The position numbers were made by a program, and so were the translations under genes. Under the pieces are notes generated by a model. The model did no database searches, had not been told where the DNA came from, and was given only the letters and a program-made list of their open reading frames with translations. A DNA stretch of 64,000 nucleotides from Flavobacteriales bacterium. GTDB taxonomy: Bacteria > Bacteroidota > Bacteroidia > Flavobacteriales > UBA1820. Location of the stretch: positions 1,944-65,943 of the forward strand of contig JAGAUI010000010.1 of assembly GCA_017620815.1 (NCBI GenBank), read 5' to 3'. This document shows, piece after piece, positions 4,233-17,049 of this stretch (its first letter is position 1; each line of letters opens with the position of its first letter).

Positions 4233-4465
4233 GACTCACTCACATATTTATATGCACAAAGGGCAGCCCTGCGGGCAACCGTTATTTTATTTTAACTAAT
4301 TGATTATCAGTGTTAGTTTTTACGAAAATTGCGAAATCCTACATAGAAGACTATATGAAAGTCGTAATTGAGCAAAAAAACTACAAATGCAAAGGCACAT
4401 AAAACTTTTGAAAGTAAAGCACTGAAATCAAGTATCTTTCAATGATGCATTGTGAATAAACTAAG

Positions 4466-4510
4466 GTGGCGTATGAGCGAACTACACAGTTCACTACATA
4501 CGCCACTTTT
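4466..4510. terminator. two-tier GC hairpin, probable terminator of the minus-strand island operon (and/or plus-strand read-through)
   Basis: GTGGCGTATG (4466-4475) pairs with CATACGCCAC (4497-4506). An inner stem GAACT/AGTTC sits inside. TTTT follows on the plus strand. The hairpin lies 55 nt beyond the stop of the 4561..5829 gene. Confidence 0.55.
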
Positions 4511-4560
4511 GTCTTGAATTAGTTTGTATTAATGCGGACTATTTTGCAACCGTACTATGA

Positions 4561-5829
4561 TTAGCACTCATCGCTTGCTGCCACACATAGGGCTGCTCGG
4601 GTAAACTCCTCAGGGAAATGGGTTTTGAGGTAAGCTGTTGAGTAGGATAGATAGGCTAGTACCACAGCGTGTGCCTTCGGGTAGGCGTACAATCCTTGCT
4701 CGGTCATCGTTTGCCAACTCGCTTCGCCATATTTTGCTACCCAGCTAGGACGATACAACTCCAACTTTTCTATCCGTTTTCTACCCACGGCACGGCGCAA
4801 ATCGTCTGCCTCAGCCTCACTAAATCCGCAAGCCATCGCATCGCGCATAATCTCCTCTTGAAAACAATATCGTGAATCATTCTCGTTAAACATCTCAAAC
4901 GCCCCTGGTCTATTTATGGCGCAAAGACGCACCAAATCGTCAAACGAGGTCGGCGGATTAAAGTGCATCTCATTTGCCATCCCTCTGCGATTTAGGCAAT
5001 AGATTCCCGCCAAGTCGCCATAATGGAACGAGCGATAAGTCTCAGCATCATCGAGTGGTATTCGCAAATCGCAGCCATTAGACAAGTCAGTAAGCATCAA
5101 TCCGCACTTATCCCAAATCTCGTGGTTTGTCCGACTAATAAGCCCTGCGATGTTTGACGCTACAAGCGTTACGATATACCCCTCGCTCTCATCGCAAGCA
5201 ATCGCCTGCTCCAAATCTCGCAGATGAGATGGGCTCAAAATCTTACCAATAAGCAACTCCACCTCGATAAACTTTTGGCGATCCTCGGGCATAAATCGGG
5301 CAAACATAAGGTTGTGCTTTATGGGGTCTATATTCGTGATTCGCAAGCAATAAAAGACTAACGAGGCAGAATAGACTCCACGCCCTGCAATGTACGAGAT
5401 CCCCAATAGACTCATCTCCTTGGTCATCTTCGCCACGCCAAGCAGATACTCCACATAGCCACAACGCTCAAAAACCGCGACTTCGTGGTCGATGCGTTGC
5501 AGATATGCTTCTCGGTTTTCGGGTGTTAATAGACCTCTCCCTTCTGCATTGTCAATCACGATTTTTTGCAGATGCTTTGCCGGCGCTTTTGCAAATTTCT
5601 TGGGAAGTTTCAGGCGAGGAACGCTAAATACTCGCTCATTGTCGTTCTCTTTTGCGGTTAATACTCCCGACTCCTTGATTTGTCGGATAATGCGGCTTGC
5701 TCGGTTAAAACCGATGCAAAACCTCTCGCTAATGCCCGAGGCGGTCAATCTCTTTTGCACTCTGGCATACGCTACAACCTCATCAAACAGAGGGTCGCAG
5801 TTGCTTCTGTCAAAAGTTTTATTCTCCAT
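4561..5829 (-). CDS. FtsK-gamma winged-helix domain fused to a truncated, divergent DNA polymerase III alpha (DnaE)-like domain
   Basis: The N-terminus 'DPLFDEVVAYARVQKRLTASGISERFCIGFNRASRIIRQIKESGVL' matches the FtsK gamma domain (DPLF...SxxQRxxxIGYNRAARIIEQME). The rest has collinear PolIII-alpha blocks: 'GRGVYSASLVFYCLRITNIDPIKHNLMFARFMPEDR', 'IPLDDAETY', 'FDDLVRLCAINRPGAF', 'FQEEIMRDAMACGFSEAEADDLRRAVGRK' and 'YAYPKAHAVVLAYLSYSTAYLKTHFPEEF'. There is no PHP domain, most of the palm/fingers is missing, and there are no beta-binding or OB domains. Confidence 0.75.
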   Translation of the reverse strand: MENKTFDRSNCDPLFDEVVAYARVQKRLTASGISERFCIGFNRASRIIRQIKESGVLTAKENDNERVFSVPRLKLPKKFAKAPAKHLQKIVIDNAEGRGLLTPENREAYLQRIDHEVAVFERCGYVEYLLGVAKMTKEMSLLGISYIAGRGVYSASLVFYCLRITNIDPIKHNLMFARFMPEDRQKFIEVELLIGKILSPSHLRDLEQAIACDESEGYIVTLVASNIAGLISRTNHEIWDKCGLMLTDLSNGCDLRIPLDDAETYRSFHYGDLAGIYCLNRRGMANEMHFNPPTSFDDLVRLCAINRPGAFEMFNENDSRYCFQEEIMRDAMACGFSEAEADDLRRAVGRKRIEKLELYRPSWVAKYGEASWQTMTEQGLYAYPKAHAVVLAYLSYSTAYLKTHFPEEFTRAALCVAASDEC

Positions 5830-6538
5830 TGTCGTCCACTACATTTATGGTTTGCAATCTGGTTAATTTAAGGTTGTATGAGAAAAACATCTCGTCTTGT
5901 TGTGATAGAAGTGTTGCATCAGGCGTATCAAGCACCAATCTTGACTGCGATTTATCTGTAATACGGAAACAAATACGAGTCGGCATATTTGCTTTTAGGC
6001 GGCCTGAAAAGACCTTCCAACTAACTGGAATTGATGCTGCGATAAGATGAACCCCAACAAGATGACCTCGCTCGGCAATATAGACAAGCATATCCATAAA
6101 CTCTTTTTTGTACATTACAAGATAATCGAAGTCATCAATCAACACCATTTTTGGAGGGAAGGAGAGGTTTGGATTACTCATTAGTTTTTTAATATTGTCG
6201 CACAACATCTCCAACGCCTCACGAATCTCCTCCATCGTAGTCAGATATGTGTCAAAATAGGGGCGATTACCATCCATCCCTTTGGGGTCGATATAGATGA
6301 CAAAACACCCCTCAAACACCTTTTTGGGGGCATAATAAATAGACTTCGCAAAGACGTGTAGAAGGTTTGTTTTCCCTTGCCCCGTTGCCCCTCCGACCAA
6401 AATATTTCCCACCTTTGCCAAATCGACAATCAGGGGCTGGTTGTTGTCATCGTAGCCGAGAAAAATAGGCAATCCCATACACTTTGTCTGCTCCTTATGA
6501 GTGCGCATAATCGTTTTAAGTTCATTCTTGTTCTTCAT
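5819..6538 (-). CDS. soluble FtsK/SpoIIIE-family DNA translocase ATPase (motor domain only)
   Basis: 239 aa. 'LPIFLGYDDNNQPLIVDLAKVGNILVGGATGQGKTNLL' carries Walker A, 'IDPKGMD' follows, 'MVLIDDFDYLV' is Walker B, and 'GVHLIAASIPVSWKVFSGRLKANMPTRICFRITDKSQSRLVLD' is collinear with the FtsK alpha/beta core. There is no TM region. The stop overlaps the next ORF's start by 11 nt (ATGGAGAATAA). Confidence 0.85.
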   Translation of the reverse strand: MKNKNELKTIMRTHKEQTKCMGLPIFLGYDDNNQPLIVDLAKVGNILVGGATGQGKTNLLHVFAKSIYYAPKKVFEGCFVIYIDPKGMDGNRPYFDTYLTTMEEIREALEMLCDNIKKLMSNPNLSFPPKMVLIDDFDYLVMYKKEFMDMLVYIAERGHLVGVHLIAASIPVSWKVFSGRLKANMPTRICFRITDKSQSRLVLDTPDATLLSQQDEMFFSYNLKLTRLQTINVVDDNGE

Positions 6539-7031
6539 CTTCTTGCTCTATTATTTTGTCAATATAGTTATCATTGTATAGTCCTTTTTCTATCGCTTTT
6601 GCCATAAGTGCCGAGTAGATGCGCCAAAAGTTTGGACCGTGAGGAGTATCCTTCTTGCCACTGCGCCGATGCTCCGTAAAGTGGATATGGTGGGCGTATT
6701 CGTGTATAGCTATCTCCTCCAACGAGTGGACATTGCCCCAGCCACCGTGAATCGTTATACTCCGCTTTGCCGGCGCATAGTAACCCATACGGCTCTTGGG
6801 ACGTTGCTCCGTAACACGCAACTCGAAAGCAACCTGCGGGCGGTAGATTTTCATCAACATCCATTTCAGTTGCGTGGCAACCTTGGTTGTCGGGTCGGTT
6901 GAGCGATATGGCCTCTCGCAGACCTCCATAGGTTGTTCCTCAGTAGTCAGTTCTCGCCAAATGACCTTAATCTCTGCCCATAATGGAAAGAGTTTTCTAT
7001 GCCCATGCAATATGATATTCTGTAAATTCAT
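6522..7031 (-). CDS. SprT-like (zincin HExxH) metallopeptidase
   Basis: 169 aa. 'IAIHEYAHHIHF' (HExxH) is followed by 'PHGPNFWRIY', which resembles the SprT 'HELxHL...HGxxW/F' arrangement. It overlaps the FtsK-like ORF by 17 nt. Confidence 0.65.
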   Translation of the reverse strand: MNLQNIILHGHRKLFPLWAEIKVIWRELTTEEQPMEVCERPYRSTDPTTKVATQLKWMLMKIYRPQVAFELRVTEQRPKSRMGYYAPAKRSITIHGGWGNVHSLEEIAIHEYAHHIHFTEHRRSGKKDTPHGPNFWRIYSALMAKAIEKGLYNDNYIDKIIEQEDEEQE

Positions 7032-7069
7032 TGCATTATTTTATGAAAATTATGAAACACTATTTCCAA

Positions 7070-7636
7070 TCAAACATCTTCATACGCTTCATAAGTCCTC
7101 ATTAATCGTTTTAATTTTTCTATCTTCTTTTCACTTGATATATCATTATCAATAATTTTTTTTACTCTTCTTTTAAGGTCAAAACCTATCTCTTGTAGAT
7201 TGTCCCAGTGAACATACACATCTATATTTGTAAGATACTGAGAATAGTAGTCTATTGCGTTATTGAGATATTCAGGATCTGTAAGGCGTTTAACCTTCTC
7301 CACACGAGGAATATCCCATATTGCAAGTTGACTATCGGTTGTCGTAACCTCTCGCTCAACAATACTATAAGCCAATTTTTCATAATGGCCACCCAATATC
7401 TTTGCAGCCTTAAAACTTCCGGACTGTGAAGCATTGTTTAGCCAGCATATTGCGCTAAACATATCCTGTTTCACCCCTTTGCCCTCATAGTAACAGATAC
7501 CTAATCGGTATTTTCCTTCGTGGTCAGCTTTATCTTCTGCTACTAACGACCAGCAGCGAATAGCATTCGTATAATCTCCGTTTGCAGCGTATAGGTTTCC
7601 TGCCTCACATATAGCCTTGATATTGTCCAAATCCAT
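7070..7636 (-). CDS. Sel1-like (TPR-family) repeat protein
   Basis: 188 aa. 'AGNLYAANGDYTNAIRCW' and 'YRLGICYYEGKGVKQDMFSAICWLNNASQSGSFKA' are typical Sel1 repeats. The gene is visibly more AT-rich than its neighbours. Confidence 0.7.
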   Translation of the reverse strand: MDLDNIKAICEAGNLYAANGDYTNAIRCWSLVAEDKADHEGKYRLGICYYEGKGVKQDMFSAICWLNNASQSGSFKAAKILGGHYEKLAYSIVEREVTTTDSQLAIWDIPRVEKVKRLTDPEYLNNAIDYYSQYLTNIDVYVHWDNLQEIGFDLKRRVKKIIDNDISSEKKIEKLKRLMRTYEAYEDV

Positions 7637-7655
7637 AACCCAAAGTTTTATAGTG

Positions 7656-7663
7656 CAAAGCTA
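7656..7663 (-). promoter_or_regulatory. candidate Bacteroidetes -7 promoter box (TAGCTTTG) upstream of the Sel1 gene
   Basis: The minus strand reads TAGCTTTG, matching TAnnTTTG, about 20 nt upstream of the ATG at 7636. It sits inside a 155-nt intergenic gap. Confidence 0.3.
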
Positions 7664-7791
7664 CCTCCTCACACAGCCAAATATTTTCAGAGTAAATTTT
7701 AGTTCTTGTTTTATTTAGCTCCTTTCGGGGGACATGTAGTAGAGTACTCATGAGTGCCTATAAGAGTTCGTATTTTGTCATAAATAAGCTG

Positions 7792-8853
7792 TTAGAAAAT
7801 AGAGATATACTCCTTGATATCGCGCGGGCAATTAAGTAGCCTCACACTCTCCATCATAAGCCCCGAGCGTCGATTATCCTCTACCTCCCAAATTGGTGTA
7901 TGCGAGGCAAAGGCGGTAATACGGTTTATTAAATCCCACATATTTATACCGCTTCGGGCTTGGTTTATAGGAAAATGTTGTGTGGCATATCCTGCAGCCT
8001 GATACAGGCCGAGCAAATGCTCATAAGGAGCAATCTCATTGGCTATATCCTGCTCCACTCCATACCGCGACAATAGTCTATCTACCATTCTGACCTCGCC
8101 CATAGATGCCTCGGTACGCATTGCAAGTAAGGCATTGGTGCGCAGTTTGTCAAATCCAGCCATAATAAATTCGGTGCGTGGCAGAGCCAACATCTTGGCT
8201 ACATTGGTATCGTTTAATTGATAGGAGTGTGCAATTTTACGCTCCGTACGCACCATATGTCCATTTGAGCAAATCATACGCATATAGTAGTTGCCAGCCT
8301 CAACTTCGCCCAAGTTCCAGCGAAACCAAACACCATTGGTCATAAACTCCTCATCTTCTGCAATTGCGTTATAGTTTGGCGTGTTGGGCATAAGACTTAC
8401 CGTAACACCACCCTGTAACGAGCCCGATGTGTAGAAAGTGTCTGGCATATAACCATTATCATTCATAAACATCTCCAAGAAATCAAAGAAGCTCTCGGCT
8501 GGTATTGCCTCTTGTTTTAGGTGTGTTGCTCCTACTATTTTTCGCTCTTTTGGGTCGGCAATCAAGGCGAGTTTTCCCGCTTTTTCTACACTATTTGATA
8601 AAGCAAGATAGTTTCGTAAATCACGTATACCATTTGCTCCGAAAGTGTCGGTAACAGACTTCGATTGTCGGGGCGATACGCCGATAAAGGCATCTATCTG
8701 CTCGGAGATATTAGGCTCGACTTCGAGTTCCAAGCCGTGCATTAGGTAGGTATTTTCGCCAGAAGAGATTAGTTCTTGTGGTTCTACGATACGGTAAGGT
8801 AGTTGTGAGGCGATGAAATTATCACGCCACGCGGTGTAAGATTTACTATCCAT
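7792..8853 (-). CDS. DUF932-like (phage/plasmid-associated) protein
   Basis: 353 aa. 'YYMRMICSNGHMV' resembles the conserved 'FRFVCQNGLV' core that I recall from DUF932 proteins such as E. coli prophage YfjQ. The rest is not recognisable by eye. It overlaps the upstream ATPase gene by 8 nt. Confidence 0.45.
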   Translation of the reverse strand: MDSKSYTAWRDNFIASQLPYRIVEPQELISSGENTYLMHGLELEVEPNISEQIDAFIGVSPRQSKSVTDTFGANGIRDLRNYLALSNSVEKAGKLALIADPKERKIVGATHLKQEAIPAESFFDFLEMFMNDNGYMPDTFYTSGSLQGGVTVSLMPNTPNYNAIAEDEEFMTNGVWFRWNLGEVEAGNYYMRMICSNGHMVRTERKIAHSYQLNDTNVAKMLALPRTEFIMAGFDKLRTNALLAMRTEASMGEVRMVDRLLSRYGVEQDIANEIAPYEHLLGLYQAAGYATQHFPINQARSGINMWDLINRITAFASHTPIWEVEDNRRSGLMMESVRLLNCPRDIKEYISIF

Positions 8854-9700
8854 TTTTCTCTCTATTTAGATTGTTAAACAATTCATCAAATCTGTCTGCA
8901 AAGTCGTGCAGTTGATTGCGGACATTGCGTTGCATACGGCGTATGCTTTGGTCTTGCTCGTAGCGTTCCTCGTCAAAATCGACATCACCCGTAGTGGAGA
9001 GGTTGTAATATAGTTTCACACCTACATCTCCTCGGCGGTGCTTCGAGAAGGTGATATAACGGTCGGAATAGATGTTTTTCGGGTTGTCCAGACGCAACTC
9101 CATCATCGCCGTAATCATATGTTTCAGGCGATTAGAGCCGACAAATGCTCCCGACTTGGTTACCTGCTGAATAGTTAGAAAAGTGGTATTGACACCTCGG
9201 TCATTCTGCGCCTTGTTCTGCTGCTTGATAAGCGACAGGAGCATACTCTCGGCTCGTTTGTTGGTTACATTCTCCTCCTCTTTGACGACACCCTGCAACT
9301 CGTGGAACGAGTCGATAGCAACAATATCCCAACCATTATCAAGCGTATCGGCAACCGTTTGCCACGAATGGCTACACTCATCAAAGCCTCCTTCGATAAA
9401 TAGAATATTAAGGTCGCCAAACTTCGGAAAACGCTCCACATAGATTGCAAGGTCGATTTCATTCATCTCCGCACTGATAAAGAGTATGCGTGCCGAAGGC
9501 TGGGCCTTGCGTATATTGGCAAGCATATCGAGTATGATTGTTGTCTTGCCTACGCCCGGGTCGCCAATAATCATATAATTAACGCCCTTGGGTAGGCCTT
9601 GATAACTACACAGCAGATTATCGAGTATTGTTCGCGTGCGGAAGTTGATAAATAGGTCCTTATCAAACCGCACATCCCGCATTTTTACTATTCCATTCAT
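8846..9700 (-). CDS. RadA/Sms-like RecA-fold ATPase (stand-alone core, no zinc finger or Lon-like domain)
   Basis: 284 aa. It has Walker A 'IIGDPGVGKTTIILDM', 'ILFISAEM', and a Walker B-like 'IVAIDSFHEL'. 'TFLTIQQVTKSGAFVGSNRLKHMITAMMELRLD' and 'ITFSKHRRGDVG' are collinear with RadA 'GHVTKEGxIAGPRVLEHMVDTVLYFEG...KNRFG'. Confidence 0.7.
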   Translation of the reverse strand: MNGIVKMRDVRFDKDLFINFRTRTILDNLLCSYQGLPKGVNYMIIGDPGVGKTTIILDMLANIRKAQPSARILFISAEMNEIDLAIYVERFPKFGDLNILFIEGGFDECSHSWQTVADTLDNGWDIVAIDSFHELQGVVKEEENVTNKRAESMLLSLIKQQNKAQNDRGVNTTFLTIQQVTKSGAFVGSNRLKHMITAMMELRLDNPKNIYSDRYITFSKHRRGDVGVKLYYNLSTTGDVDFDEERYEQDQSIRRMQRNVRNQLHDFADRFDELFNNLNREKNG

Positions 9701-9719
9701 CGCATCCTTGATTTTGCGA

Positions 9720-9727
9720 CAAAAGTA
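9720..9727 (-). promoter_or_regulatory. candidate -7 promoter box (TACTTTTG) for the six-gene module
   Basis: The minus strand reads TACTTTTG (TAnnTTTG). It lies immediately after the terminator hairpin and about 20 nt upstream of the ATG at 9700. Confidence 0.35.
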
Positions 9728-9730
9728 AAA

Positions 9731-9761
9731 CCCCTCTCTGCCACATCAGGACAGAGAGGGG
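9731..9761 (-). terminator. intrinsic terminator after the PLD nuclease gene
   Basis: CCCCTCTCTG (9731-9740) pairs with CAGAGAGGGG (9752-9761). On the minus-strand RNA the stem is followed by UUUUACUUUU. Confidence 0.65.
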
Positions 9762-9783
9762 GTGATTTGAAAATTTTGCTCTA

Positions 9784-10317
9784 TTATTTCGTCTTTTTTA
9801 CCTGCATGGTTATTGGCATTCCACAATAGTCTTTGCGCTTGCAATTTTTACAATGTTCGCCAGACCAGACCGAGTTGAAATGGTCGGCGGCGGCATCAAC
9901 CAACGCGAGGTCGTCGGTCATAATTCCCGCCTCAAAGTTGCGCTTGCCATCGGACTTCATTCCAATACCTGCACCCGTAAGGTTTGCCGAGCCGATATAT
10001 GCCGCCTCACAATCGAAAATCATCATTTTGAAATGGACTCTCGGACAGAGTTTACGTTGCAAATTCTTTATGAGAGAAGGATACTTATCAAAATCTTCAC
10101 GGAAGTTCGGCCCCGGCTCTTTGGCGTGCAACAATCTTACCTCCACACCTCGCCTGACGAGCAAATCAAGCACCGCAAGGAACGGCTCACGACCTGCTCC
10201 GACCTTCACATAGAGGTCTTTGATATCGGCCGTACCAATCACCAGCGAATGCCTTACACTCGCCACCCGCGCCAGCACCTCATTGTAGTGCGCTATGTCA
10301 GAGATGTAGTTTATCAT
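9784..10317 (-). CDS. single-HKD phospholipase D-family (Nuc-like) nuclease
   Basis: 'HFKMMIFDCEAAYIGSANLT' matches HxK(x)4D(x)6GSxN exactly. The C-terminus is Cys-rich ('HCKNCKRKDYC'). I set the start at the internal ATG at 10317 ('MINYISD'), 4 nt after the GmrSD stop, rather than at the track's 10377. Confidence 0.85.
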   Translation of the reverse strand: MINYISDIAHYNEVLARVASVRHSLVIGTADIKDLYVKVGAGREPFLAVLDLLVRRGVEVRLLHAKEPGPNFREDFDKYPSLIKNLQRKLCPRVHFKMMIFDCEAAYIGSANLTGAGIGMKSDGKRNFEAGIMTDDLALVDAAADHFNSVWSGEHCKNCKRKDYCGMPITMQVKKTK

Positions 10318-10321
10318 TTTT

Positions 10322-12367
10322 CTAATTATAAATAAGATGATAGAAACATTTATAGATATTAACCAATCGTCGTGCAATAGCCATTGCGTGATTTATGACC
10401 ATCGATTCGTCATCTTTATTAAACCTTTCAGTCAATGTTTTCCAATATTCCAAATCTCCTTCTTCTATAAAATAATTTTTATGAGTAGAGACATCTTTTA
10501 ACCTATCACTGGGGGACAGTTTATTGCTTTCACTACGATTATCAGATAGTGACATAGCACGTAAATTGCCAATAGTATTATTCCATTTGCGAGTTAATTC
10601 ATGGATCTTTCTTTGTCCATACACCCATTCACTTGGATAGATATGATCCCAATCCCATGGAGTATTGGTATCTTCCAGTCGTTCTAGTTCATTAAATTCT
10701 GGAAATTCATCGCGAATATAAGAACTTTGAGCTATTAGTATGAGTAAACGATTATATTGTACAGAATTGATAAAGCCCCACCACGAATCTGAAATTTTAG
10801 AGTTGAACTGTTCTTTGTTGATTTCTGAAGCCCCAATACGACATTCCCAGTATTTCCATATCTCTGGGTCATTTTCTGCAGATAACGAATAATCATTATC
10901 CTTATCTTCTATCTTTTTTTCAAAAAATTTCATCAGCAACTCTGGGTCAATGAGAGGGTATTGTATAAACCGCCCATCATTAACTGGCTGACTCCAGAAA
11001 TCATCACTAGTAACACTATTCCATTTTTCATTGACATAAGTCGATACATCACCAAACCATGCAGTACGATATATCTGTGAACAAATAGCTGTCTTTAAGG
11101 AAGAATCTATAGATAAATCTTTATCTATATACTCATCAAGATAGCGAAGTAATAATAAAAATATTTCTGTTTTGGTAGCAATTACCTGTCTTACCACGAC
11201 ATTGGGAATTTCTCCATTCATTTGGAGGATTTCCACAGCTATATCATAAAGTTTTTTTATCCTTCCATCTTCACTACCTATGTAATTTTTTAATAATTGT
11301 TCTTTAAAATCAGGATTATTTATAAAATTTTGGAATTGTTTTACTCCTATATTCTTAATATAATTACCGTTATTAACCTTTGCATATACCAATTTAGATG
11401 CCAAAACAATAGTTTTAGCTGGAGAAATGATGTTTTGTGAAAGTGATTCTACCAAAGATTTAGCTTCTGGACAAGTAGATTTATAAATAGAATAAATGAG
11501 TTCTTCCCCCTCCAAGCGTGTCCCTTCAGAATTGATTCTTACAAATAAAGTGGGATCATTACCTTCATTATTTTTATCATCTAAGGACAAGACTCCTTTT
11601 TTTACTATAATTCCAGGCACCATTAGCTTTATAGCATTGTTCTTGATAGCATTGTAGATATCCTTATAGTCATTATTATTTAATTTTTCCCTATAATCTT
11701 CAGCTTTAATATATTTAGTATTGAGCCCTAAGGGAAAATGTGTTGCAACTTTTTTACAAATGATTGCCTTCCAGTCTTCATAAGATATGTCTTGATTCCC
11801 TTCAAAAGGAGCTAGGGCAAATGATAGTGGTATGGGTAAATATGAGTCATATGGGTAACGCTCTTCTGGTTTAAGGTCTATGTATTTTTTCTTTTGCTTT
11901 CCATCTTCCTCATTTTCAGAAATAAGATAATCTAGAGCCTTTACTCTATCACTCACACTCAAAATAGCATTATTATTAAAGAGCTGATACCCCCAAGGAT
12001 GAGATTGGGTTACAACCCTTATGACAAATTTCTGACCATAACTATACTTTTCAGGTTTTAAATCAATCCATACAACAGGTAATTGGTGGGCATTACCTAT
12101 GGATTTACGTTCTTCTTCCCATGGATTATATAAAGCTAGTGCTATGGACGTTGAACGTTGCTGACCATCAAACAACCACATAGTTTGATTTTCTGTTTCA
12201 GATAGCATAAAAGCTCCTATTGGATAGCCACTGAGTATAGAATCCCATACGCGTTCTATTTGTACTGGTTTCCATACAAAACCTCGTTGCATCGCAGGTA
12301 GTAATATATTTGAATTTTCACTTACCAACCATTTGCTTATTTCAAATAAATTATATACTTCTACCAT
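10322..12367 (-). CDS. GmrSD-family type IV restriction-like enzyme (DUF262 ParB-like NTPase + DUF1524 His-Me nuclease)
   Basis: 681 aa. The N-terminus 'LPAMQRGFVWKPVQIERVWDSILSGYPIGAFML...FDGQQRSTSI' carries the DGQQR motif. The C-terminus 'WDWDHIYPSEW...IGNLRAMSLSDNRSESNK' is HNH/His-Me-like. The gene is very AT-rich compared with its flanks. Confidence 0.9.
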   Translation of the reverse strand: MVEVYNLFEISKWLVSENSNILLPAMQRGFVWKPVQIERVWDSILSGYPIGAFMLSETENQTMWLFDGQQRSTSIALALYNPWEEERKSIGNAHQLPVVWIDLKPEKYSYGQKFVIRVVTQSHPWGYQLFNNNAILSVSDRVKALDYLISENEEDGKQKKKYIDLKPEERYPYDSYLPIPLSFALAPFEGNQDISYEDWKAIICKKVATHFPLGLNTKYIKAEDYREKLNNNDYKDIYNAIKNNAIKLMVPGIIVKKGVLSLDDKNNEGNDPTLFVRINSEGTRLEGEELIYSIYKSTCPEAKSLVESLSQNIISPAKTIVLASKLVYAKVNNGNYIKNIGVKQFQNFINNPDFKEQLLKNYIGSEDGRIKKLYDIAVEILQMNGEIPNVVVRQVIATKTEIFLLLLRYLDEYIDKDLSIDSSLKTAICSQIYRTAWFGDVSTYVNEKWNSVTSDDFWSQPVNDGRFIQYPLIDPELLMKFFEKKIEDKDNDYSLSAENDPEIWKYWECRIGASEINKEQFNSKISDSWWGFINSVQYNRLLILIAQSSYIRDEFPEFNELERLEDTNTPWDWDHIYPSEWVYGQRKIHELTRKWNNTIGNLRAMSLSDNRSESNKLSPSDRLKDVSTHKNYFIEEGDLEYWKTLTERFNKDDESMVINHAMAIARRLVNIYKCFYHLIYN

Positions 12368-12393
12368 TATAATGAATATTTTATTTCTTTATC

Positions 12394-12675
12394 TTACCAC
12401 TCGTTCATCTCCTCCAAATCTTCATCGTCAAACATCGCTTTGAGTTCGTCATCAGCATCAAACACATCATATTCTTCTTTAACCTGTGATAGCAGGCGAA
12501 GTGCCTTGTGACGAGTTATACTATCGGGGATTTCCATAAGACCTTGCTCGATATCCATCAATTTCTCATCAAATTCATTGTAGTCAAAATCATCTTCTTG
12601 AGTTACATCTGTAGCAAGCATTGCCTCCAATTCTTTTATATATGGACGTGCCATATCTTCTGCATATTTATACAT
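12394..12675 (-). CDS. hyper-acidic small protein (30 Asp+Glu of 93 residues)
   Basis: By hand count there are 30 D/E against 9 K/R. Acidic runs include 'QEDDFDYNEFDE' and 'FDADDELKAMFDDEDLEEMNEW'. It lies between the WYL regulator and GmrSD, with 15- and 26-nt gaps. Confidence 0.6.
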   Translation of the reverse strand: MYKYAEDMARPYIKELEAMLATDVTQEDDFDYNEFDEKLMDIEQGLMEIPDSITRHKALRLLSQVKEEYDVFDADDELKAMFDDEDLEEMNEW

Positions 12676-12690
12676 AATATTTTATTTTAA

Positions 12691-13626
12691 TTACTTTTTA
12701 TACACCTTAAACTTATACCCTGAATCCATACCTGCCGAGGCATTGTTGTTTGCGGTCTTCTCGGCCTTAGTGCGGAGCATATCTTTGAGTAGCACGGGGG
12801 CTAACACGCCTACTGAGTCGCCCATTGAGAGTATTTTCTGCTGAAAATCAAACGACGGACACAAGCGGTACTCGAAAATAGAATACTCCTCATTGCGCTC
12901 TACCTCCTTTTGCGTGTGGTGCAGTGGTAATGTACGCAAATAGTTACTCTGCCACGAATCGACCTTCAATGCCACAGGGCCAACATCAAAATCTTCATCG
13001 CCGATGATAATGCCGTAGTAGTCTTCAAAAAACTTCGCTGCATCGAACTTTTTGGGCAGTTTGAATGTACACTCTGTCTGCTCCAAAGCTTTGATGCGGT
13101 CGAGGGCATAGATGCGCAGTTTGTCGCTCATTCCGAGCATATACCATCTTTGCCTAAAAAGTTTAACGCAATATGGCTCCACCTCAAATGTCGAAGCCTC
13201 GCTTCTACCAAAACTATGGTATGTCATATGCAATGTCCTATTCTCACGCATAGCCTTGACGATAGACATAAGAAAGTTCTGTCCAGATGGAATATCTTCC
13301 AGCAGGATACGTTTTTTAAGTGCAGCACTTTCATTAAGAACACTATTTACCGAAAAAGTTTGAATTAACCATTTACGCATCTTCATATCCTCTATATCAT
13401 CATTGGCTACTACATAGCCATTGCGTTTACGGTCATACTCTATGTCTATGTCAAATAGTTCCTCTACCGCATCGGTATAACGATGGAATGTACGCTCTTC
13501 CAATACTTCTCCTGTATCAAAGTGTAGTTCAAACCTACGTTGAATATCTTTTAACGATATTGGCCCGTAATTCAATATAGTAGTTACAAACCAAACATAA
13601 CGGTTAATAAGCCCTGCGGTACTCAT
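12691..13626 (-). CDS. WYL-domain transcriptional regulator (wHTH-WYL-WCX architecture, BrxR/CapW-like)
   Basis: 311 aa. The N-terminus 'GPISLKDIQRRFELHF' is wHTH-like. The central 'VKLFRQRWYMLGMSDKLRIYALDRIKALE' is the WYL signature (WY[LM]xG...LDRI). Confidence 0.8.
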   Translation of the reverse strand: MSTAGLINRYVWFVTTILNYGPISLKDIQRRFELHFDTGEVLEERTFHRYTDAVEELFDIDIEYDRKRNGYVVANDDIEDMKMRKWLIQTFSVNSVLNESAALKKRILLEDIPSGQNFLMSIVKAMRENRTLHMTYHSFGRSEASTFEVEPYCVKLFRQRWYMLGMSDKLRIYALDRIKALEQTECTFKLPKKFDAAKFFEDYYGIIIGDEDFDVGPVALKVDSWQSNYLRTLPLHHTQKEVERNEEYSIFEYRLCPSFDFQQKILSMGDSVGVLAPVLLKDMLRTKAEKTANNNASAGMDSGYKFKVYKK

Positions 13627-13657
13627 AACGGGTTGAAATTTTAGGTAAAGTTAAAAA

Positions 13658-13927
13658 TTATAATCGAATCCAACGCTCGGGTGAGGATAAAAAGTGTATC
13701 GCCAATGTGCCGATAATCACGCCGACCACGACCGCAATAGCTGTCCGACTGCGTTGTTTGCGCTTATTTTGTGGAAACGAATCAGCCGCACGACCCCACA
13801 ACGCTGCAAGGTCATACAGCTGATTTATAATGCTTTGTCGCAGTTGTACACTAAATGGCAGCTGCTCTCGGGTTTGCTTCTGATGTTTCTTCTGCTCCAT
13901 ACTCTTTTCTATTAAATTTTGATGCAA
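13658..13927 (-). CDS. small tail-anchored membrane protein (hypothetical)
   Basis: 89 aa, with a basic/polar N-terminal half and one C-terminal TM segment 'AIAVVVGVIIGTLAIHFL'. There is no other support. Confidence 0.4.
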   Translation of the reverse strand: MHQNLIEKSMEQKKHQKQTREQLPFSVQLRQSIINQLYDLAALWGRAADSFPQNKRKQRSRTAIAVVVGVIIGTLAIHFLSSPERWIRL

Positions 13928-13967
13928 AGGTATGATTGTATACTGACAAAATGAGTCAGTGTTATGA

Positions 13968-14453
13968 CTATTTCAATAAAGCAAGTACATTGTGTTGATT
14001 AAACACAAACCACACCAAGAAACAAAGAACAAAAAAACAACGGAATGAAGTAAAGAAACGCTCAATGGTATATTTCATCTTAAACTCCAAATAATCGACA
14101 TTGCTGCTGCGATAGAAATAACGACGCGACAACACCTCTTCTGTGTGATTATACACAAAAGTTGCTGTCATAACAGCTCCAATAAGACCTATAATACCAA
14201 CTGCAATAACCCAACCTAAACCTCCAAGGATGTAGAATGTGTAGCCACACAAAGCTAAAGCAAAAACAAAGAATGTAAATCCATCACCAACTTTCTTTGT
14301 TGGCACAAGGCTGCATAACAGAATAAAACCTAAAAGACCGACAATATCTAAGTTTTCAATCTTCAAATAAAATAACAATAGGACTGGCAATGTCATTACC
14401 ATCACAATGCTCTCTATGTTTGCTATCAGCCAGCTCTTAAATGTAATCTTCAT
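13968..14453 (-). CDS. polytopic membrane protein (hypothetical, about 5 TM)
   Basis: 161 aa and strongly hydrophobic ('VMVMTLPVLLLFYL', 'VGLLGFILLCSLV', 'FTFFVFALALCGYTFYILGGLGWVIAVGIIGLIGAVMTATFV', 'FFVLCFLVWFVF'). It starts 14 nt after the preceding ORF and is AT-rich. Confidence 0.6.
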   Translation of the reverse strand: MKITFKSWLIANIESIVMVMTLPVLLLFYLKIENLDIVGLLGFILLCSLVPTKKVGDGFTFFVFALALCGYTFYILGGLGWVIAVGIIGLIGAVMTATFVYNHTEEVLSRRYFYRSSNVDYLEFKMKYTIERFFTSFRCFFVLCFLVWFVFNQHNVLALLK

Positions 14454-14467
14454 AATGATTAACTTAA

Positions 14468-15418
14468 TTAAAATAATTTAGTTAGATATTTCATTGTAGA
14501 TGTTTCTGGTAAACTATCATAAAGAATCGTTGTATATTTATCTTCTTCATCACCATCTGGTATAAAGTAAAATACACACTCTTCACCATAAACATCACAA
14601 GTAATTTTTGTCATTGGGATTGACAGGAATATCATTGAATGTGATATAACATTTCCTAGTTCTAAAGCATCTACAATCCTCATATACTCATCGTATAAAT
14701 CGAGGAGATGTCGTTCAGACAGACCAGCTTCTGAAAACATTTTTTTGCCCTCTTCAGCATCTTTTACAACATAGTTAGCATTATTTATCATTGACTGAAT
14801 TTCTACCGCTGCTGCATAATAATGGGCATAAAGAGCATTATCTATATTGACCACAACATCACTTATTTTACACCATACATTACCCATATTTAATCGTCCA
14901 GAGGGACTTACTATGTATTTCTTATTTTGGTTTAAAGACTCTAAAATTGGTGCACTTATTTCTTCGTCACAAACACCTATGGGTGAATATAATATATTAT
15001 GAGAATCTGACGTTAAAAATGAAATCCCGGCAACTTGGGTATATTTTCCATCGCTACATATCTTACCACCAAACAATAACTCGGGGTTGTAACCAGAATC
15101 CATCATCGTTCTATCAAAAGCAGGTACACTTTGGTCGCAAACATTTTTATCACATAATGTACTAAGATGATACACAAGAGTAACTTCCGTATGATTTGTG
15201 CGTATATTTGAGGCTACTTTTTTCATGATTTTTGCAGTGCGAAATTCCCCTGGCAATAAATCATCTGTCTTTTCCACATAGTGTTGAAACTCAGGTAATC
15301 CTATTTTAAGATCATATGGAATAGCATAAATATCAAGTACGTGGTGGAAAAATTCTTGGAGTTCCATTTTTACATAAAATGGGAGCTTCCCCAATTTTAC
15401 TTGCTTTAATACTTTCAT
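14468..15418 (-). CDS. hypothetical soluble protein (no recognisable motif)
   Basis: A 316-aa uninterrupted ORF in an AT-rich block, tightly followed by the membrane protein gene. I could identify no known motifs. Confidence 0.55.
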   Translation of the reverse strand: MKVLKQVKLGKLPFYVKMELQEFFHHVLDIYAIPYDLKIGLPEFQHYVEKTDDLLPGEFRTAKIMKKVASNIRTNHTEVTLVYHLSTLCDKNVCDQSVPAFDRTMMDSGYNPELLFGGKICSDGKYTQVAGISFLTSDSHNILYSPIGVCDEEISAPILESLNQNKKYIVSPSGRLNMGNVWCKISDVVVNIDNALYAHYYAAAVEIQSMINNANYVVKDAEEGKKMFSEAGLSERHLLDLYDEYMRIVDALELGNVISHSMIFLSIPMTKITCDVYGEECVFYFIPDGDEEDKYTTILYDSLPETSTMKYLTKLF

Positions 15419-15731
15419 TGTTTATTTTATTTAAGTTATCAATAAAAAAAGTGCGTACTGCTGTTTCCATACAACAACAGGCACCGCCAAGCGCCCAGTA
15501 CACATACAGATAAACAAGCAGCCCGCACCTATACTGGTGGCGAACAATATTTGTTATCCTCGTGTACATATCGAGTGCCTTGCACTCAGACAAAATTGGC
15601 GGTTTTGTTGTTTGAGGACTTTTCAGTTCTAATATGTTGTGATCCCACAGGGGACACGCTTCAAAACTAAACATTTTTTCACAAACTACAAAGTTTCGGA
15701 CTGCTTTTTACAATATTCTGTTTTTATTTGG

Positions 15732-15739
15732 CAAAACTA
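15732..15739 (-). promoter_or_regulatory. candidate -7 promoter box (TAGTTTTG) within a repeated GGTGTAGTTTTGCC motif
   Basis: The minus strand reads GGTGTAGTTTTGCC. The same 14-mer recurs at 16834-16847, upstream of the next gene. Confidence 0.3.
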
Positions 15740-15773: not shown

Positions 15774-16811
15774 TTATCTTCTTACAAACTCATACAACTC
15801 TCGCAGGTAGTCGTCGATGTTTTCGTCTATATAGAAACAATCTTTTTGTGGTTGCCAGCGGTAATGCACTTTGTCGGATAATGGCTCTGTCCACTGCTCC
15901 ACGCCTGGCATATCCGCGGATAAATCCTCCAAATAATCGTGAAAATATAGGCGTGTGCGATTGGCTATCTCTTGCCCGAGTCGGATTTTAGGCGCACGAT
16001 TTTGCTCGGCCTCGTGCAAAAACTTATCCCTAAACTCATCAAACGAGCAACGCTCCCACCATTTCCCACCACTGCCATCTTGCTCCTCCCAATGCTGATG
16101 CGAGACCTTGACCTCCACGCAAAAGTCGTTCATACGCAGAATGTCGGAAATGGAATAGGGCTTGTGGCAACTCAAATCGTGAATGGCATGACAGATACAG
16201 AGGTGGCTCAATTTCTCGGCGGCAGGCTGTACGGACTCATACCAAGTCGTGTCGTCATTGAGGTCATCTTTTATCCCCAACTCTTCGCATGTCATTTCGG
16301 GGCGATAGTCGGCAGGCGAGCGGAGGTACCAGCAAGACTCTACCTCCTCCAATTTCAGATGCTTGCAAGTGTATAGCCAGTCAATAATGCAAAACATCTC
16401 GTAGAATTCCGAGCCGTAATAGTCGTCATTCGCCATTGGCAAAACAGAACTGTGTCCATTCGGCGAAAACCTAAGCGAGCCCTCGACCTCCACATCGTCA
16501 TCAAATTCGGGGTCATAGGTTGTGGTCGCCATCTTGCGATAGACAGCCTCTGTACGAGCATACATCTTATGCGTAAGTTCAAATAGCCTATTATTTACTT
16601 GCTCCATACGCACCACCTCCTCAGGTGTAGCGACAAACATCTTATCGAGCAGATGTTTACGCTTCCAAATCAATTTTTCGACCTGCTCACATTTGCGCTG
16701 CGAACGAGTCCACTCGATATTAAACTCCACATTTCGTCCCGTGATGGCAAGAATCTTCTCTTCGATTTTCTGCACCTGCTCCCGCAGATGGGTATATTCA
16801 TTGTTTTTCAT
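15774..16811 (-). CDS. hypothetical protein, N-terminal coiled-coil-like region and Cys/His-rich centre
   Basis: I trimmed the ORF to the ATG at 16811 ('MKNNEYTHL'), because a TAnnTTTG box lies inside the longer track ORF. The centre reads 'HLCICHAIHDLSCHKPY'. No family was recognised. Confidence 0.55.
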   Translation of the reverse strand: MKNNEYTHLREQVQKIEEKILAITGRNVEFNIEWTRSQRKCEQVEKLIWKRKHLLDKMFVATPEEVVRMEQVNNRLFELTHKMYARTEAVYRKMATTTYDPEFDDDVEVEGSLRFSPNGHSSVLPMANDDYYGSEFYEMFCIIDWLYTCKHLKLEEVESCWYLRSPADYRPEMTCEELGIKDDLNDDTTWYESVQPAAEKLSHLCICHAIHDLSCHKPYSISDILRMNDFCVEVKVSHQHWEEQDGSGGKWWERCSFDEFRDKFLHEAEQNRAPKIRLGQEIANRTRLYFHDYLEDLSADMPGVEQWTEPLSDKVHYRWQPQKDCFYIDENIDDYLRELYEFVRR

Positions 16812-16834
16812 AATAAATGGGATGTAATTTTCGG

Positions 16835-16842
16835 CAAAACTA
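16835..16842 (-). promoter_or_regulatory. candidate -7 promoter box (TAGTTTTG) at the upstream edge of the island
   Basis: The minus strand reads GGTGTAGTTTTGCC, with the box 24 nt upstream of the ATG at 16811. Confidence 0.35.
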
Positions 16843-17049
16843 CACCACCAAACTGCCATAATATGACAGATTAGAATTTCAAAGACAAAAAGAGCAGAAT
16901 GTTGAATTTTATTTAAGCCGTACCAAGTAACACCAATTGACCTTAATTTAGACTACAAAGGAGGTTACACGAGAAGAGTAAGATTGGAGTTTTAGCGGTT
17001 TTTGTGAGCTATATCTTTTTACAGCACAACTGCCTAACATGTTGAATAT

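What the first reader, a model, noticed from the sequence alone, without database searches (positions are those of the whole stretch)
4561..9700. Six-gene DNA-handling module with no named counterpart: RadA-like ATPase, DUF932-like, Sel1, SprT-like Zn-protease, soluble FtsK motor, FtsK-gamma::mini-PolIII-alpha
Six ORFs lie on the same strand. Three junctions overlap: 8846-8853 by 8 nt, 6522-6538 by 17 nt, and 5819-5829 by 11 nt. That pattern points to translational coupling and fixed stoichiometry. The module is insulated upstream by a good terminator (9731-9761) followed by a TAnnTTTG box, and downstream by a 10+5 bp hairpin (4466-4506). Five of the six recognisable products (all but the Sel1 repeat protein) belong to DNA-associated families: a stand-alone RadA/RecA-fold ATPase, a DUF932-like protein (a family I associate with prophage and ICE cargo), a SprT-type HExxH protease, an FtsK alpha/beta pump without a membrane anchor, and a KOPS-reader-type gamma winged helix fused to a gutted PolIII-alpha. 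I see no integrase, relaxase, T4SS, capsid, terminase or replication initiator that would make this an ordinary ICE or phage backbone. The module sits directly beside GmrSD, PLD-nuclease and WYL genes, which is a defence-island context. I cannot match this combination to any described defence or mobile-element system. A translocase plus DNA reader plus protease plus recombinase-like ATPase could be an anti-invader DNA surveillance or exclusion machine. It could equally be the maintenance core of an unrecognised element.
Basis: partly seen in the sequence, partly recalled or inferred. Interest (0 to 1): 0.88.

Follow-up and report, generated by a model that had tools for sequence, protein, structure and literature searches.

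The report
Mosaic defence island, not one machine
The six tightly packed genes are real, but related genomes show them to be at least five independently swapped cassettes in a mobile, WYL-regulated defence island of gut Bacteroidales; two cassettes (a RadA-like ATPase with a DUF932-fold partner, and a polymerase-dead mini-DnaE with a small FtsK-gamma protein) are uncharacterised and worth testing.

Summary
Six minus-strand ORFs lie at 4561-9700 with the stated overlaps, terminator, hairpin and defence-gene neighbours, and most domain calls are confirmed. The interpretation as one fixed six-gene machine does not hold.

In 18 independent related loci the six never co-occur. The ATPase and the 353-aa protein always travel together. 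Sel1, SprT and FtsK are each present or absent independently. The "FtsK-gamma::PolIII fusion" comes from a 4-nt deletion private to this lineage; elsewhere it is two overlapping genes.

The mini-PolIIIα has lost its catalytic aspartates, thumb, PHP, clamp-binding and OB parts, so it is not a polymerase. It is still under purifying selection (dN/dS 0.14).

The genes occupy the distal half of a ~12.7-kb island (about 4285-16940). Its conserved frame is u361, u89, WYL regulator, gamma and mini-DnaE, with variable slots between them. Relatives carry a tyrosine integrase, in one case next to tRNA-Phe; the window copy has none.

The ATPase–DUF932 pair recurs down to 40% identity, usually behind a PLD nuclease and near a WYL regulator, once on an element with relaxase and integrase. 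No named system matches.

Best reading: a mosaic defence island carrying uncharacterised candidate cassettes.

The parts
8846..9700 (-). p1: stand-alone RadA/Sms-type P-loop ATPase domain (284 aa). Walker A is GDPGVGKT, and a KHRRG motif resembles RadA's KNRFG. There is no Zn finger and no Lon domain. It forms an obligate pair with p2.
   Evidence: Family and structure hits. It is always found with p2, with an 8-nt overlap, in 7 independent contexts. dN/dS is 0.046. A TAnnTTTG box upstream is conserved in all contexts.
7792..8853 (-). p2: 353-aa protein with a DUF932/TIGR03299-like fold, partner of p1.
   Evidence: No hit in Pfam, NCBIfam, PHROGs or PADLOC. The family is small, 42 clusters. 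The AF2 model has pLDDT 83.6. BFVD fold hits are to DUF932 proteins, with no PDB match. dN/dS is 0.081.
7070..7636 (-). p3: Sel1/TPR-like repeat protein (188 aa), an independently assorting cassette with its own promoter-like repeat at 7651-7699.
   Evidence: Weak Pfam Sel1/TPR hits and phrog_8741. Present in only 3 of 18 related loci. Promoter-like repeat.
6522..7031 (-). p4: SprT-like HExxH metallopeptidase (169 aa, HEYAH motif), an independently assorting cassette.
   Evidence: Pfam hit is below the cut-off, the motif is present, and there is no PDB sequence hit. Present in 6 of 18 related loci, with or without Sel1 or FtsK.
5819..6538 (-). p5: FtsK/SpoIIIE beta (RecA-like) core only (239 aa). 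Walker A is GATGQGKT, and Walker B reads DD instead of DE. There is no alpha domain, no gamma domain and no membrane anchor. It is a variable cassette.
   Evidence: Present in 6 of 18 loci at 34-86% identity. It is a clean indel relative to L016 at the same chromosomal site.
5641..5829 (-). FtsK-gamma-like winged-helix part of p6. In relatives this is a separate ~69-aa ORF that ends in TAG.
   Evidence: Pfam FtsK_gamma at 43.1 bits and PDB FtsK gamma hits. The alignment showing a 4-nt deletion in the window is, and the two-frame HSPs in relatives are.
4561..5640 (-). Polymerase-dead mini-DnaE part of p6, which is a separate 360-aa ORF with its own ATG in relatives. It keeps an N-terminal palm segment and part of the fingers. 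The catalytic motif PDxDxD has become EVE. The thumb, third Asp, PHP, clamp-binding and OB parts are absent.
   Evidence: dN/dS is 0.14.
4285..4560 (-). Conserved non-coding tail of the island, including the hairpin at 4460-4512. The island's right end is at about 4285.
9731..9761 (-). Terminator hairpin followed by a TAnnTTTG box. It marks the 5' edge of the p1-p2 cassette, whose homology block is 7752-9761.
9784..10317 (-). Single-HKD PLD-family nuclease (HFKMMIFD). Its likely start is the ATG at 10317, not the TTG at 10377. It frequently lies immediately upstream of the p1-p2 pair.
10322..12675 (-). GmrSD-family type IV restriction enzyme plus a 93-aa ORF: variable cargo in the slot between WYL and PLD.
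   Evidence: Other loci carry different genes in this slot.
12691..13927 (-). WYL-WCX (BrxR/CapW-type) regulator plus the upstream 89-aa ORF u89: conserved frame genes of the island.
15774..16938 (-). u361, the first conserved gene of the island, with its promoter region. Its fold is unknown. The island's left end lies between 16938 and 17132. The integrase found here in relatives is absent from the window.

Best explanation
The 5.1-kb stretch is the distal half of a ~12.7-kb mosaic genomic island at window ~4285-16940. The island lies between serA and host lipoprotein genes in a Bacteroidota chromosome.

It belongs to a family of islands circulating among animal-gut Rikenellaceae and other Bacteroidales. 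The family has a conserved frame: u361, u89, a WYL-WCX regulator, then a small FtsK-gamma-like wHTH protein and a polymerase-dead mini-DnaE as the last two genes. Between the frame genes are slots where self-contained cassettes are gained, lost and exchanged. Full-length relatives carry a tyrosine integrase at the u361 end, once next to tRNA-Phe. The window copy has lost it.

The six ORFs are five units:
1. RadA-type ATPase plus a DUF932-fold protein, translationally coupled and with its own promoter.
2. Sel1/TPR-like protein.
3. SprT-like metallopeptidase.
4. FtsK beta-core ATPase.
5. Gamma-wHTH plus mini-DnaE, fused here by a private 4-nt deletion.

Inferred mechanism (not shown): the island is a WYL-controlled defence island. 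The WYL repressor is released by DNA damage or ssDNA during infection. The ATPase-DUF932 pair acts as an ATP-driven DNA-sensing or remodelling module, with the adjacent single-HKD PLD nuclease as its usual effector. The mini-DnaE, guided by its gamma wHTH partner, works as a non-catalytic DNA- or replisome-binding protein (sensor, decoy or blocker) and not as a polymerase.
For: Composite nature:
- In the tblastn synteny map and the presence/absence matrix, the six genes never co-occur in 18 independent loci. Sel1, SprT and FtsK appear in every combination.
- Against L016, which has the island at the same serA site, homology comes in blocks: chromosome flank 85%, the p1-p2-Sel1-SprT block 93.5%, the GmrSD block 94.6%, WYL 73.8%. 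FtsK is a clean indel.
- The 49-nt promoter-like repeats and the conserved TAnnTTTG boxes indicate separate transcription units.

The two couples:
- ATPase and p2 keep an 8-nt overlap in 7 independent contexts, down to 40% identity.
- Gamma precedes the mini-DnaE even in L035, where the mini-DnaE is only 29% identical.

Fusion artefact: a 4-nt deletion is seen in the window against 6 relatives, and most homologues are 360 aa.

Dead polymerase: the catalytic motif is not conserved and the thumb and third-Asp segment is deleted. Only 3 other mini representatives were found among 1.84 billion proteins.

Functional genes: dN/dS is 0.05-0.31 for all island genes, and the catalytic motifs of the PLD, both ATPases and the peptidase are intact.

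Mobility:
- The mini-DnaE end abuts different housekeeping genes in different genomes.
- Relatives have a full integrase or integrase remnants, and L014 has tRNA-Phe at the integrase end.

Defence context:
- Neighbours include GmrSD, PLD, PDDEXK_4, McrBC, SLFN, RT and bpMoxR-VWA.
- Coprobacter strains swap McrBC for GmrSD at one u361-WYL site.
- WYL regulators of defence islands sense ssDNA or DNA damage according to PMC11662680 and PMC9122601.
Against: - No experiment or named-system match shows that any of the six genes is defensive. PADLOC finds only domain-level similarity.
- DUF932 proteins are typical of plasmids, ICEs and phages (the bioRxiv paper read), so the ATPase-DUF932 pair could serve the element and not the host.
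- No att repeats were found, so an excisable unit has not been demonstrated.
- Sampling was seeded with the mini-DnaE, p2 and u361. Co-occurrence of Sel1, SprT and FtsK outside mini-DnaE islands was therefore not surveyed.
- The roles proposed for the mini-DnaE and for PLD as effector are inference from gene adjacency only.
Confidence: 0.72

Rival explanations
1. One reading: the six genes encode one stoichiometric DNA-surveillance or exclusion machine made of translocase, DNA reader, protease and recombinase-like ATPase.
For: The genes share a strand and are tightly packed with three overlaps. A flanking terminator and hairpin bracket them. Most products belong to DNA-related families. All six are under purifying selection.
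Against: - The six never co-occur in 18 related loci, and each of Sel1, SprT and FtsK is individually dispensable.
- The ATPase-p2 pair occurs in 5 other contexts without any of the other four genes.
- A 155-nt gap with a promoter-like repeat separates p2 from Sel1.
- The fusion is a private 4-nt deletion.
Confidence: 0.04
2. The genes are element-serving functions of an integrative mobilizable island: leading-region-type or DNA-processing proteins, not host defence. On this reading DUF932 with a RadA-like helicase protects or processes incoming ssDNA, the SprT protein is an ArdC-like protease, the FtsK-like protein with gamma is a coupling or resolution factor acting with the tyrosine recombinase, and the mini-DnaE acts in replication control.
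For: - The DUF932 fold is typical of phages, plasmids and ICEs (the paper read).
- p5 and p1 give weak hits to TraD/TrwB coupling proteins.
- FtsK gamma is known to activate XerD, as in PDB 5dcf (listed), and relatives of the island carry tyrosine integrases.
- In L051-53 the WYL-PLD-ATPase-p2 block sits on an element with relaxase, NikA, HTH_17 and integrase.
- In L003 an IME with relaxase abuts the gamma/mini-DnaE genes.
Against: - The window and most window-type islands have no relaxase, oriT protein, primase or replication initiator.
- Every one of these genes is dispensable in some island copy, including copies that keep the integrase (L014, L021, L023).
- They are interleaved with restriction-type cargo downstream of a BrxR-type WYL regulator.
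- No relatives were found in PLSDB plasmids or IMG/VR.
Confidence: 0.2
3. It is a degraded prophage or phage-satellite remnant whose genes are decaying.
For: There are PHROG hits for p1, p5 and p6. The window copy has no integrase. The DnaE homologue is truncated and catalytically dead.
Against: - dN/dS of 0.05-0.31 shows purifying selection on every gene.
- There are no capsid, terminase, portal or primase genes in the window or in 50 related loci.
- IMG/VR has no relatives, and phage records hold only full-length DnaE at under 30% identity.
Confidence: 0.03

Closest known systems
BrxR/CapW-type WYL-regulated defence islands (PMC9122601, PMC11662680)
   Same: A wHTH-WYL-WCX regulator lies at the head of a run of same-strand defence genes, including GmrSD (BrxU-like) and nucleases. 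Cargo downstream of the regulator differs between strains.
   Different: Here the regulator is embedded in a larger conserved frame: u361 and u89 upstream, gamma and mini-DnaE at the far end. Much of the cargo is uncharacterised. Regulation by WYL was not tested.
Pipolins: integrative, polymerase-marked defence-island platforms (PMC11551731)
   Same: Both are integrase-type islands, often at tRNA genes, that hold an exchangeable reservoir of defence genes and carry an unusual DNA-polymerase homologue as a conserved landmark.
   Different: The landmark here is a family C (DnaE) fragment, not a primer-independent PolB. It is catalytically dead and is not universal in the u361-WYL islands. No att repeats were found.
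FtsK/SpoIIIE DNA translocases, and the FtsK-like components mad8 (MADS) and SspH (Ssp)
   Same: p5 shares the RecA-like beta core with a Walker A motif. The next ORF is a gamma-type winged helix, in the natural beta-then-gamma order.
   Different: There is no alpha domain and no membrane anchor. Gamma is on a separate polypeptide, fused here to the mini-DnaE. Walker B reads DD. None of the other MADS or Ssp genes is present.
RadA/Sms branch-migration helicase
   Same: The p1 ATPase domain aligns to RadA residues 83-236 and has a KNRFG-like KHRRG motif.
   Different: It lacks the N-terminal zinc finger and the C-terminal Lon-like domain. It scores far below the RadA equivalog cut-off (33.5 against 403 bits). 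It is always paired with a DUF932-fold protein.
ImuA-ImuB-DnaE2 mutasome (background in PMC12926913)
   Same: It sets a precedent: a catalytically inactive polymerase homologue can serve as a scaffold next to a RecA-family ATPase and a family C polymerase.
   Different: In this island the inactive protein is the DnaE homologue itself. There is no Y-family partner. The RadA-like ATPase and the mini-DnaE assort independently.

Membership tests
Family C DNA polymerase (DnaE / Pol III alpha) | Catalytic aspartate triad in the palm (PDxDxD plus a third Asp) | tested here: not met
   The motif is EVE in the window, ELV in P0163 and LFE in P0166. The segment holding the third Asp is deleted.
Family C DNA polymerase (DnaE / Pol III alpha) | PHP domain, thumb, beta-clamp-binding and OB domains | tested here: not met
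   The protein aligns only to Taq Pol III alpha residues 380-462 and 647-850. It has 359 residues against ~1,200 in the full-length enzyme.
FtsK/SpoIIIE translocase | RecA-like beta domain with Walker A and Walker B motifs | tested here: met
   Pfam FtsK_SpoIIIE at 43.6 bits. It aligns to P. aeruginosa FtsK residues 193-258 and 337-434. Walker A is GATGQGKT, and Walker B is DD instead of DE.
FtsK/SpoIIIE translocase | Alpha domain and gamma domain in the same polypeptide, with a membrane anchor | tested here: not met
   p5 has 239 aa, starts at the beta domain, and has nothing N-terminal to it. Gamma is encoded by the next ORF.
RadA/Sms | Zn finger, RecA-like ATPase, KNRFG motif and Lon-like C-terminal domain | tested here: not met
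   Only the ATPase domain is present, with a KHRRG variant motif. TIGR00416 scores 33.5 bits against a 403 cut-off.
DUF932 (PF06067 / TIGR03299) | Match to the family's sequence profile | tested here: not met
   No Pfam or NCBIfam hit at E up to 0.1.
DUF932 (PF06067 / TIGR03299) | Shared fold | tested here: met
   Foldseek against BFVD returns DUF932 and TIGR03299 proteins at E 2e-10 to 3e-5 with TM 0.46-0.59. The query model has pLDDT 83.6.
SprT-like metallopeptidase | HExxH motif and a profile match above the gathering score | tested here: inconclusive
   An HEYAH motif is present. Pfam SprT-like scores 21.4 bits, below the 25.6 cut-off. There is no PDB sequence hit.
MADS defence system | Eight-gene mad1-mad8 operon | tested here: not met
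   Only mad8-like hits were found (1.8e-22 for p5, 3.6e-7 for p1). No other mad model hit the six proteins or the 10 neighbouring proteins.
Ssp (SspABCD-SspFGH) and DISARM (DrmC) | Presence of the partner genes (SspA-G; DrmA/B/D/E/MI) | tested here: not met
   Only the C-terminal FtsK-like part of SspH matches p5, and DrmC matches the PLD only weakly (1e-6). No partner genes were found.
Integrative genomic island (tyrosine-recombinase type) | Integrase gene at one end | tested here: not met
   There is none in the window: tblastn with the L014 integrase gives E above 0.7. It is present in L014, L021 and L023, and as remnants in L009, L017 and L003-5.
Integrative genomic island (tyrosine-recombinase type) | Flanking direct repeats (att) or a tRNA target | tested here: inconclusive
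   L014 has tRNA-Phe abutting the integrase, and the tRNA 3' end is shared with L021. No second copy was found in L014, L021 or the window.
Pipolin | Primer-independent PolB hallmark gene | tested here: not met
   No PolB was found. The polymerase homologue is a dead DnaE fragment.
WYL (BrxR/CapW)-regulated defence island | wHTH-WYL-WCX regulator next to known defence genes | tested here: met
   WYL scores 58.7 bits and WCX is weak. PADLOC WYL is 1.3e-27. GmrSD and a PLD nuclease lie downstream.
WYL (BrxR/CapW)-regulated defence island | Repression of the downstream genes by the WYL protein, relieved by DNA damage or ssDNA | not testable with these tools
   This needs expression data or reporter assays.

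The most novel reading that the evidence does not exclude
Two cassettes in this stretch are new anti-invader systems. The first is a WYL-controlled PLD nuclease plus RadA-type ATPase plus DUF932-fold protein module. The second is an FtsK-gamma wHTH protein paired with a polymerase-dead mini-DnaE that acts as a replisome mimic or decoy, sensing or blocking phage or plasmid replication. Both ride on a previously undescribed family of Bacteroidales islands, with a u361-WYL head and a mini-DnaE tail, that trade defence cassettes.
Probability: 0.3. Interest if true: 0.72.

Novelty: new variant of a known kind. Interest (0 to 1): 0.5.

Why it matters
Defence islands of gut Bacteroidales are poorly charted, and most experimentally validated systems come from Proteobacteria and Firmicutes. 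This analysis turns an apparent six-gene "machine" into separate, testable pieces:
- A strictly coupled RadA-like ATPase and DUF932-fold pair. It could give a first functional handle on DUF932, which is widespread on plasmids, ICEs and phages.
- A narrow family of polymerase-dead DnaE fragments kept under purifying selection. This would be an example of a replicative-polymerase fold reused for something other than synthesis.
- An island family whose conserved frame and swappable slots could be mined for further cassettes.

It is also a caution. Tight packing and overlapping ORFs in one genome do not establish a functional unit.

Tried and rejected
- IMG/VR scans with p6, the p2 alignment and p5 found no relatives.
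- PLSDB plasmids have no p2 relative.
- Phage records hold only full-length DnaE at under 30% identity, with no mini form.
- PDB sequence or profile searches gave nothing meaningful for p2, p4 and u361.
- PDB fold searches for p2 and u361 gave no significant match.
- Rfam found nothing in the island, and the window has no tRNA.
- Searches for an attR copy of the tRNA-Phe 3' end in L014, L021 and the window found none.
- Long direct or inverted terminal repeats of the island were not found. There were only promoter-like 49-mers and host REP-like hairpins.
- Sigma-70-type promoter and terminator counts were no higher than in shuffles, apart from the one strong terminator.
- Literature searches for a described system combining FtsK-gamma, Pol III alpha and WYL, for DUF932 function, and for inactive truncated DnaE found no description.
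- The MADS preprint gave no domain detail for mad8.
- I considered and rejected the idea that the mini-DnaE is a decaying pseudogene (dN/dS 0.14).
- I also rejected the idea that the fusion is an assembly error: the identical 422-aa product occurs in contigs from two other metagenome samples.

Full report
**1. Observation**

Their overlaps are 8, 17 and 11 nt.

The terminator at 9731-9761 is strong (12-bp stem, dG -24.1, z -5.0) and is followed by TACTTTTG, a Bacteroidetes-type TAnnTTTG box. The hairpin at 4460-4512 is also strong (dG -30.1, z -7.9).

Upstream lie a single-HKD PLD nuclease, a GmrSD enzyme and a WYL-WCX regulator. Downstream are serA and serC. The rest of the window is ordinary chromosome: purL, recQ, RNase G, and a B12 riboswitch in front of a TonB-dependent receptor. 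The window has no tRNA and no integrase.

**2. Domain calls**

- p1 is a stand-alone RadA/Sms-type ATPase domain. It has a Walker A motif and a KHRRG motif resembling KNRFG, but no Zn finger and no Lon domain.
- p2 has no sequence-family hit anywhere. A good AF2 model (pLDDT 83.6, pTM 0.73) matches DUF932/TIGR03299 phage-plasmid proteins in BFVD at E down to 6e-16 and TM 0.5-0.59, and nothing in the PDB.
- p3 (Sel1/TPR) and p4 (SprT-like, HEYAH motif) are weak hits below Pfam's thresholds.
- p5 is only the RecA-like beta core of FtsK. It has no alpha domain, carries an internal deletion, and its Walker B reads DD. It resembles PADLOC's mad8 and the C-terminus of SspH, but no partner genes of those systems are present.
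- p6 combines FtsK_gamma with pieces of the DnaE palm and fingers.

**3. The fusion is private to this lineage**

The 120 best homologues of p6 listed (271 found in all) are 359-366 aa and cover only the PolIII part. A DNA alignment with six relatives shows that the window has a 4-nt deletion. In the relatives a ~69-aa gamma ORF ends in TAG and overlaps a 360-aa ORF that has its own ATG. The deletion joins the two frames (two-frame HSPs). The fused 422-aa product also occurs in contigs from two other metagenome samples, so it is real in this strain and not an assembly error.

**4. The mini-DnaE is not a polymerase**

It aligns to Taq Pol III alpha only at residues 380-462 and 647-850. The PDxDxD motif is EVE in the window, ELV in P0163 and LFE in P0166. 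The stretch carrying the thumb and the third catalytic Asp is deleted. The PHP, clamp-binding and OB domains are absent, and the finger RPG and KSH motifs are not conserved either.

The family is tiny. Among 1.84 billion representatives only three other full-length mini forms appear, and every other hit is a full-size DnaE matched in three stretches. Yet dN/dS is 0.14 over 25 comparisons, so the protein is maintained by selection.

**5. The six genes are not one unit**

I collected 53 related loci using the mini-DnaE, p2 and u361 as seeds and mapped every island protein onto them. In 18 independent mini-DnaE loci outside the window's own strain:

| Gene(s) | Loci with it (of 18) |
|---|---|
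| p1 + p2 (always together) | 2 |
| Sel1 | 3 |
| SprT | 6 |
| FtsK | 6 |
| All six | 0 |

Sel1, SprT and FtsK occur in every combination.

L016 has the island at the same Band7-serC-serA site, but it lacks FtsK as a clean indel. Its similarity to the window comes in blocks: chromosome flank 85%, the p1-p2-Sel1-SprT block 93.5%, the GmrSD block 94.6%, and WYL 73.8%. That pattern is the signature of recent cassette exchange.

Cassettes carry their own promoter-like elements. These are the 49-nt repeats at 7651, 15727 and 16830, and a TAnnTTTG box upstream of the ATPase that is invariant in all seven contexts.

**6. The island**

Similarity between loci ends at window ~4285 on the right, after a conserved 275-nt tail that contains the hairpin. 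On the left it ends between 16938 and 17132. The island is therefore about 12.7 kb.

Its conserved frame is u361, u89, WYL, then gamma and mini-DnaE. Between the frame genes lie the variable slots:
- u113, u316 and u161, or PDDEXK_4.
- GmrSD with u93, or PDDEXK_4 with a 219-aa protein, or a UDG-like protein, and others.
- PLD.
- An extra small gamma ORF.
- ATPase-p2.
- Sel1, SprT and FtsK.

The frame persists in L035 even though its mini-DnaE is only 29% identical.

The mini-DnaE end abuts a different host gene in different genomes: serA, catalase, an AmiA-like gene, pyrophosphatase with tRNA-Cys, or a BACON-domain protein.

A tyrosine integrase (Arm-DNA-bind_5, SAM_5 and Phage_integrase domains) lies directly upstream of u361 in L014 and L021. 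In L014 it sits next to tRNA-Phe, and the tRNA's 3' end starts the shared sequence. L023 has a divergent integrase. L009, L017 and L003-5 have only C-terminal remnants. The window and L035 have none. I could not find an attR copy, so excision has not been demonstrated.

u361 has a confident model (pLDDT 79.8) but no known fold. u361-WYL heads also exist without the mini-DnaE (L040-42). In Coprobacter they precede McrBC in one strain and a GmrSD pair in others, at the same chromosomal site.

**7. The ATPase-DUF932 pair**

In seven independent contexts, with p2 identity from 92% down to 40%, a 276-287-aa RecA/RadA-like ATPase precedes p2 with the same 8-nt overlap. A 170-aa PLD nuclease sits directly upstream, or one small ORF away, in five of the seven. 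A WYL regulator is nearby in all seven.

The neighbours are defence-type genes: GmrSD pairs, SLFN/AlbA, PDDEXK_4, a reverse transcriptase, bpMoxR-VWA and a colicin-type DNase. In L051-53 the WYL-PLD-ATPase-p2 block is cargo on an element with relaxase, NikA, HTH_17 and integrase. In L032 a different DnaE fragment, consisting only of the fingers, lies beside WYL and PLD. That suggests a recurrent association of these parts.

**8. Mechanism**

Shown:
- The stretch is composite.
- There are two obligate couples.
- The polymerase homologue is catalytically dead.
- All genes are under purifying selection.
- The context is a mobile island, with an integrase in relatives.
- The neighbourhood is made of defence-type genes.

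Inferred:
- The WYL regulator keeps the island's genes repressed until DNA damage or ssDNA appears, as shown for CapW and BrxR in PMC11662680 and PMC9122601.
- The ATPase-DUF932 pair is an ATP-driven DNA-sensing or remodelling module that usually works with the PLD nuclease.
- Gamma targets the mini-DnaE to DNA, where it acts non-catalytically as a sensor, decoy or blocker.
- Sel1, SprT and FtsK are accessory cassettes.

The main rival is that these are element-serving proteins of the leading-region or DNA-processing type. DUF932 is typical of plasmids, ICEs and phages (the paper read), and FtsK gamma activates XerD-type recombinases (PDB 5dcf, listed). Against this, every one of these genes is dispensable in some integrase-bearing copy, no relaxase or replication genes accompany them in window-type islands, and plasmid and viral collections hold no relatives.

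**9. Comparison and novelty**

No named system matches. The closest kinds are WYL-regulated defence islands and polymerase-marked integrative defence platforms (pipolins, PMC11551731). The hallmark features of pipolins, MADS, Ssp and DISARM were tested and not met. A recent survey of bacterial polymerases discarded truncated sequences and does not describe this mini-DnaE.

I rate the finding as a new variant of a known kind: a mosaic defence island carrying uncharacterised cassettes.

Noticed in passing
window 55551-55757 (+): A cobalamin riboswitch (Rfam RF00174, 89 bits) lies directly upstream of a TonB-dependent receptor gene at 55905-57941.
   Followed up: partly
window 4251-4282, 18413-18444, 20409-20440: Three copies of a GC-rich palindrome (AAGGCAGCCCGCAGGGCTGCCTT) look like REP-type host terminators. 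One follows serA, and two bracket the u197 plus DUF5128 gene pair. This suggests that the region left of ~17000 is host DNA, not island.
   Followed up: partly
window 7651-7699, 15727-15775, 16830-16878: A 49-nt repeat family (69-71% identity), each copy containing a TAnnTTTG box, sits just upstream of the Sel1, u113 and u361 genes. These are probably reused promoters, and they could also act as recombination points for cassette exchange.
   Followed up: partly
window 9784-10377 (-): The PLD ORF's TTG start at 10377 overlaps GmrSD by 56 nt and is probably wrong. Homology to relatives and their 170-aa length point to the ATG at 10317.
   Followed up: partly
window 15774-16859 (-); L044-L046 10001-11032: u361 is a conserved island-head protein. 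It has a confident predicted structure but no match to any solved fold or family. A 40%-identical homologue heads a Coprobacter hotspot where McrBC and a GmrSD pair are swapped between strains.
   Followed up: partly
L032 12650-14148: A second, unrelated-looking 237-aa DnaE fragment consisting only of the fingers lies next to WYL, followed by a DUF6140 protein and a PLD nuclease. The same island also holds the ATPase-DUF932 pair.
   Followed up: partly
L021 11320-11940 (-); L022 3076-3255 and 4279-4401: L021 has a second u361-like gene (37% identity) on the opposite strand just beyond the mini-DnaE. L022 has an extra gamma ORF and a duplicated SprT fragment. Both look like scars of tandem insertion or cassette recombination.
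   Followed up: no
window 20668-21144 (-): A 158-aa ORF outside the island matches three PHROG families of unknown function (E about 1e-12). Its role and origin were not examined.
   Followed up: no
L003 474-8926: A separate mobilizable element carrying a relaxase, NikA, DUF3408, an AbiE toxin-antitoxin pair and two tyrosine integrases is inserted right next to a reduced island consisting of an integrase remnant, HTH_17, a gamma remnant and the mini-DnaE.
   Followed up: no
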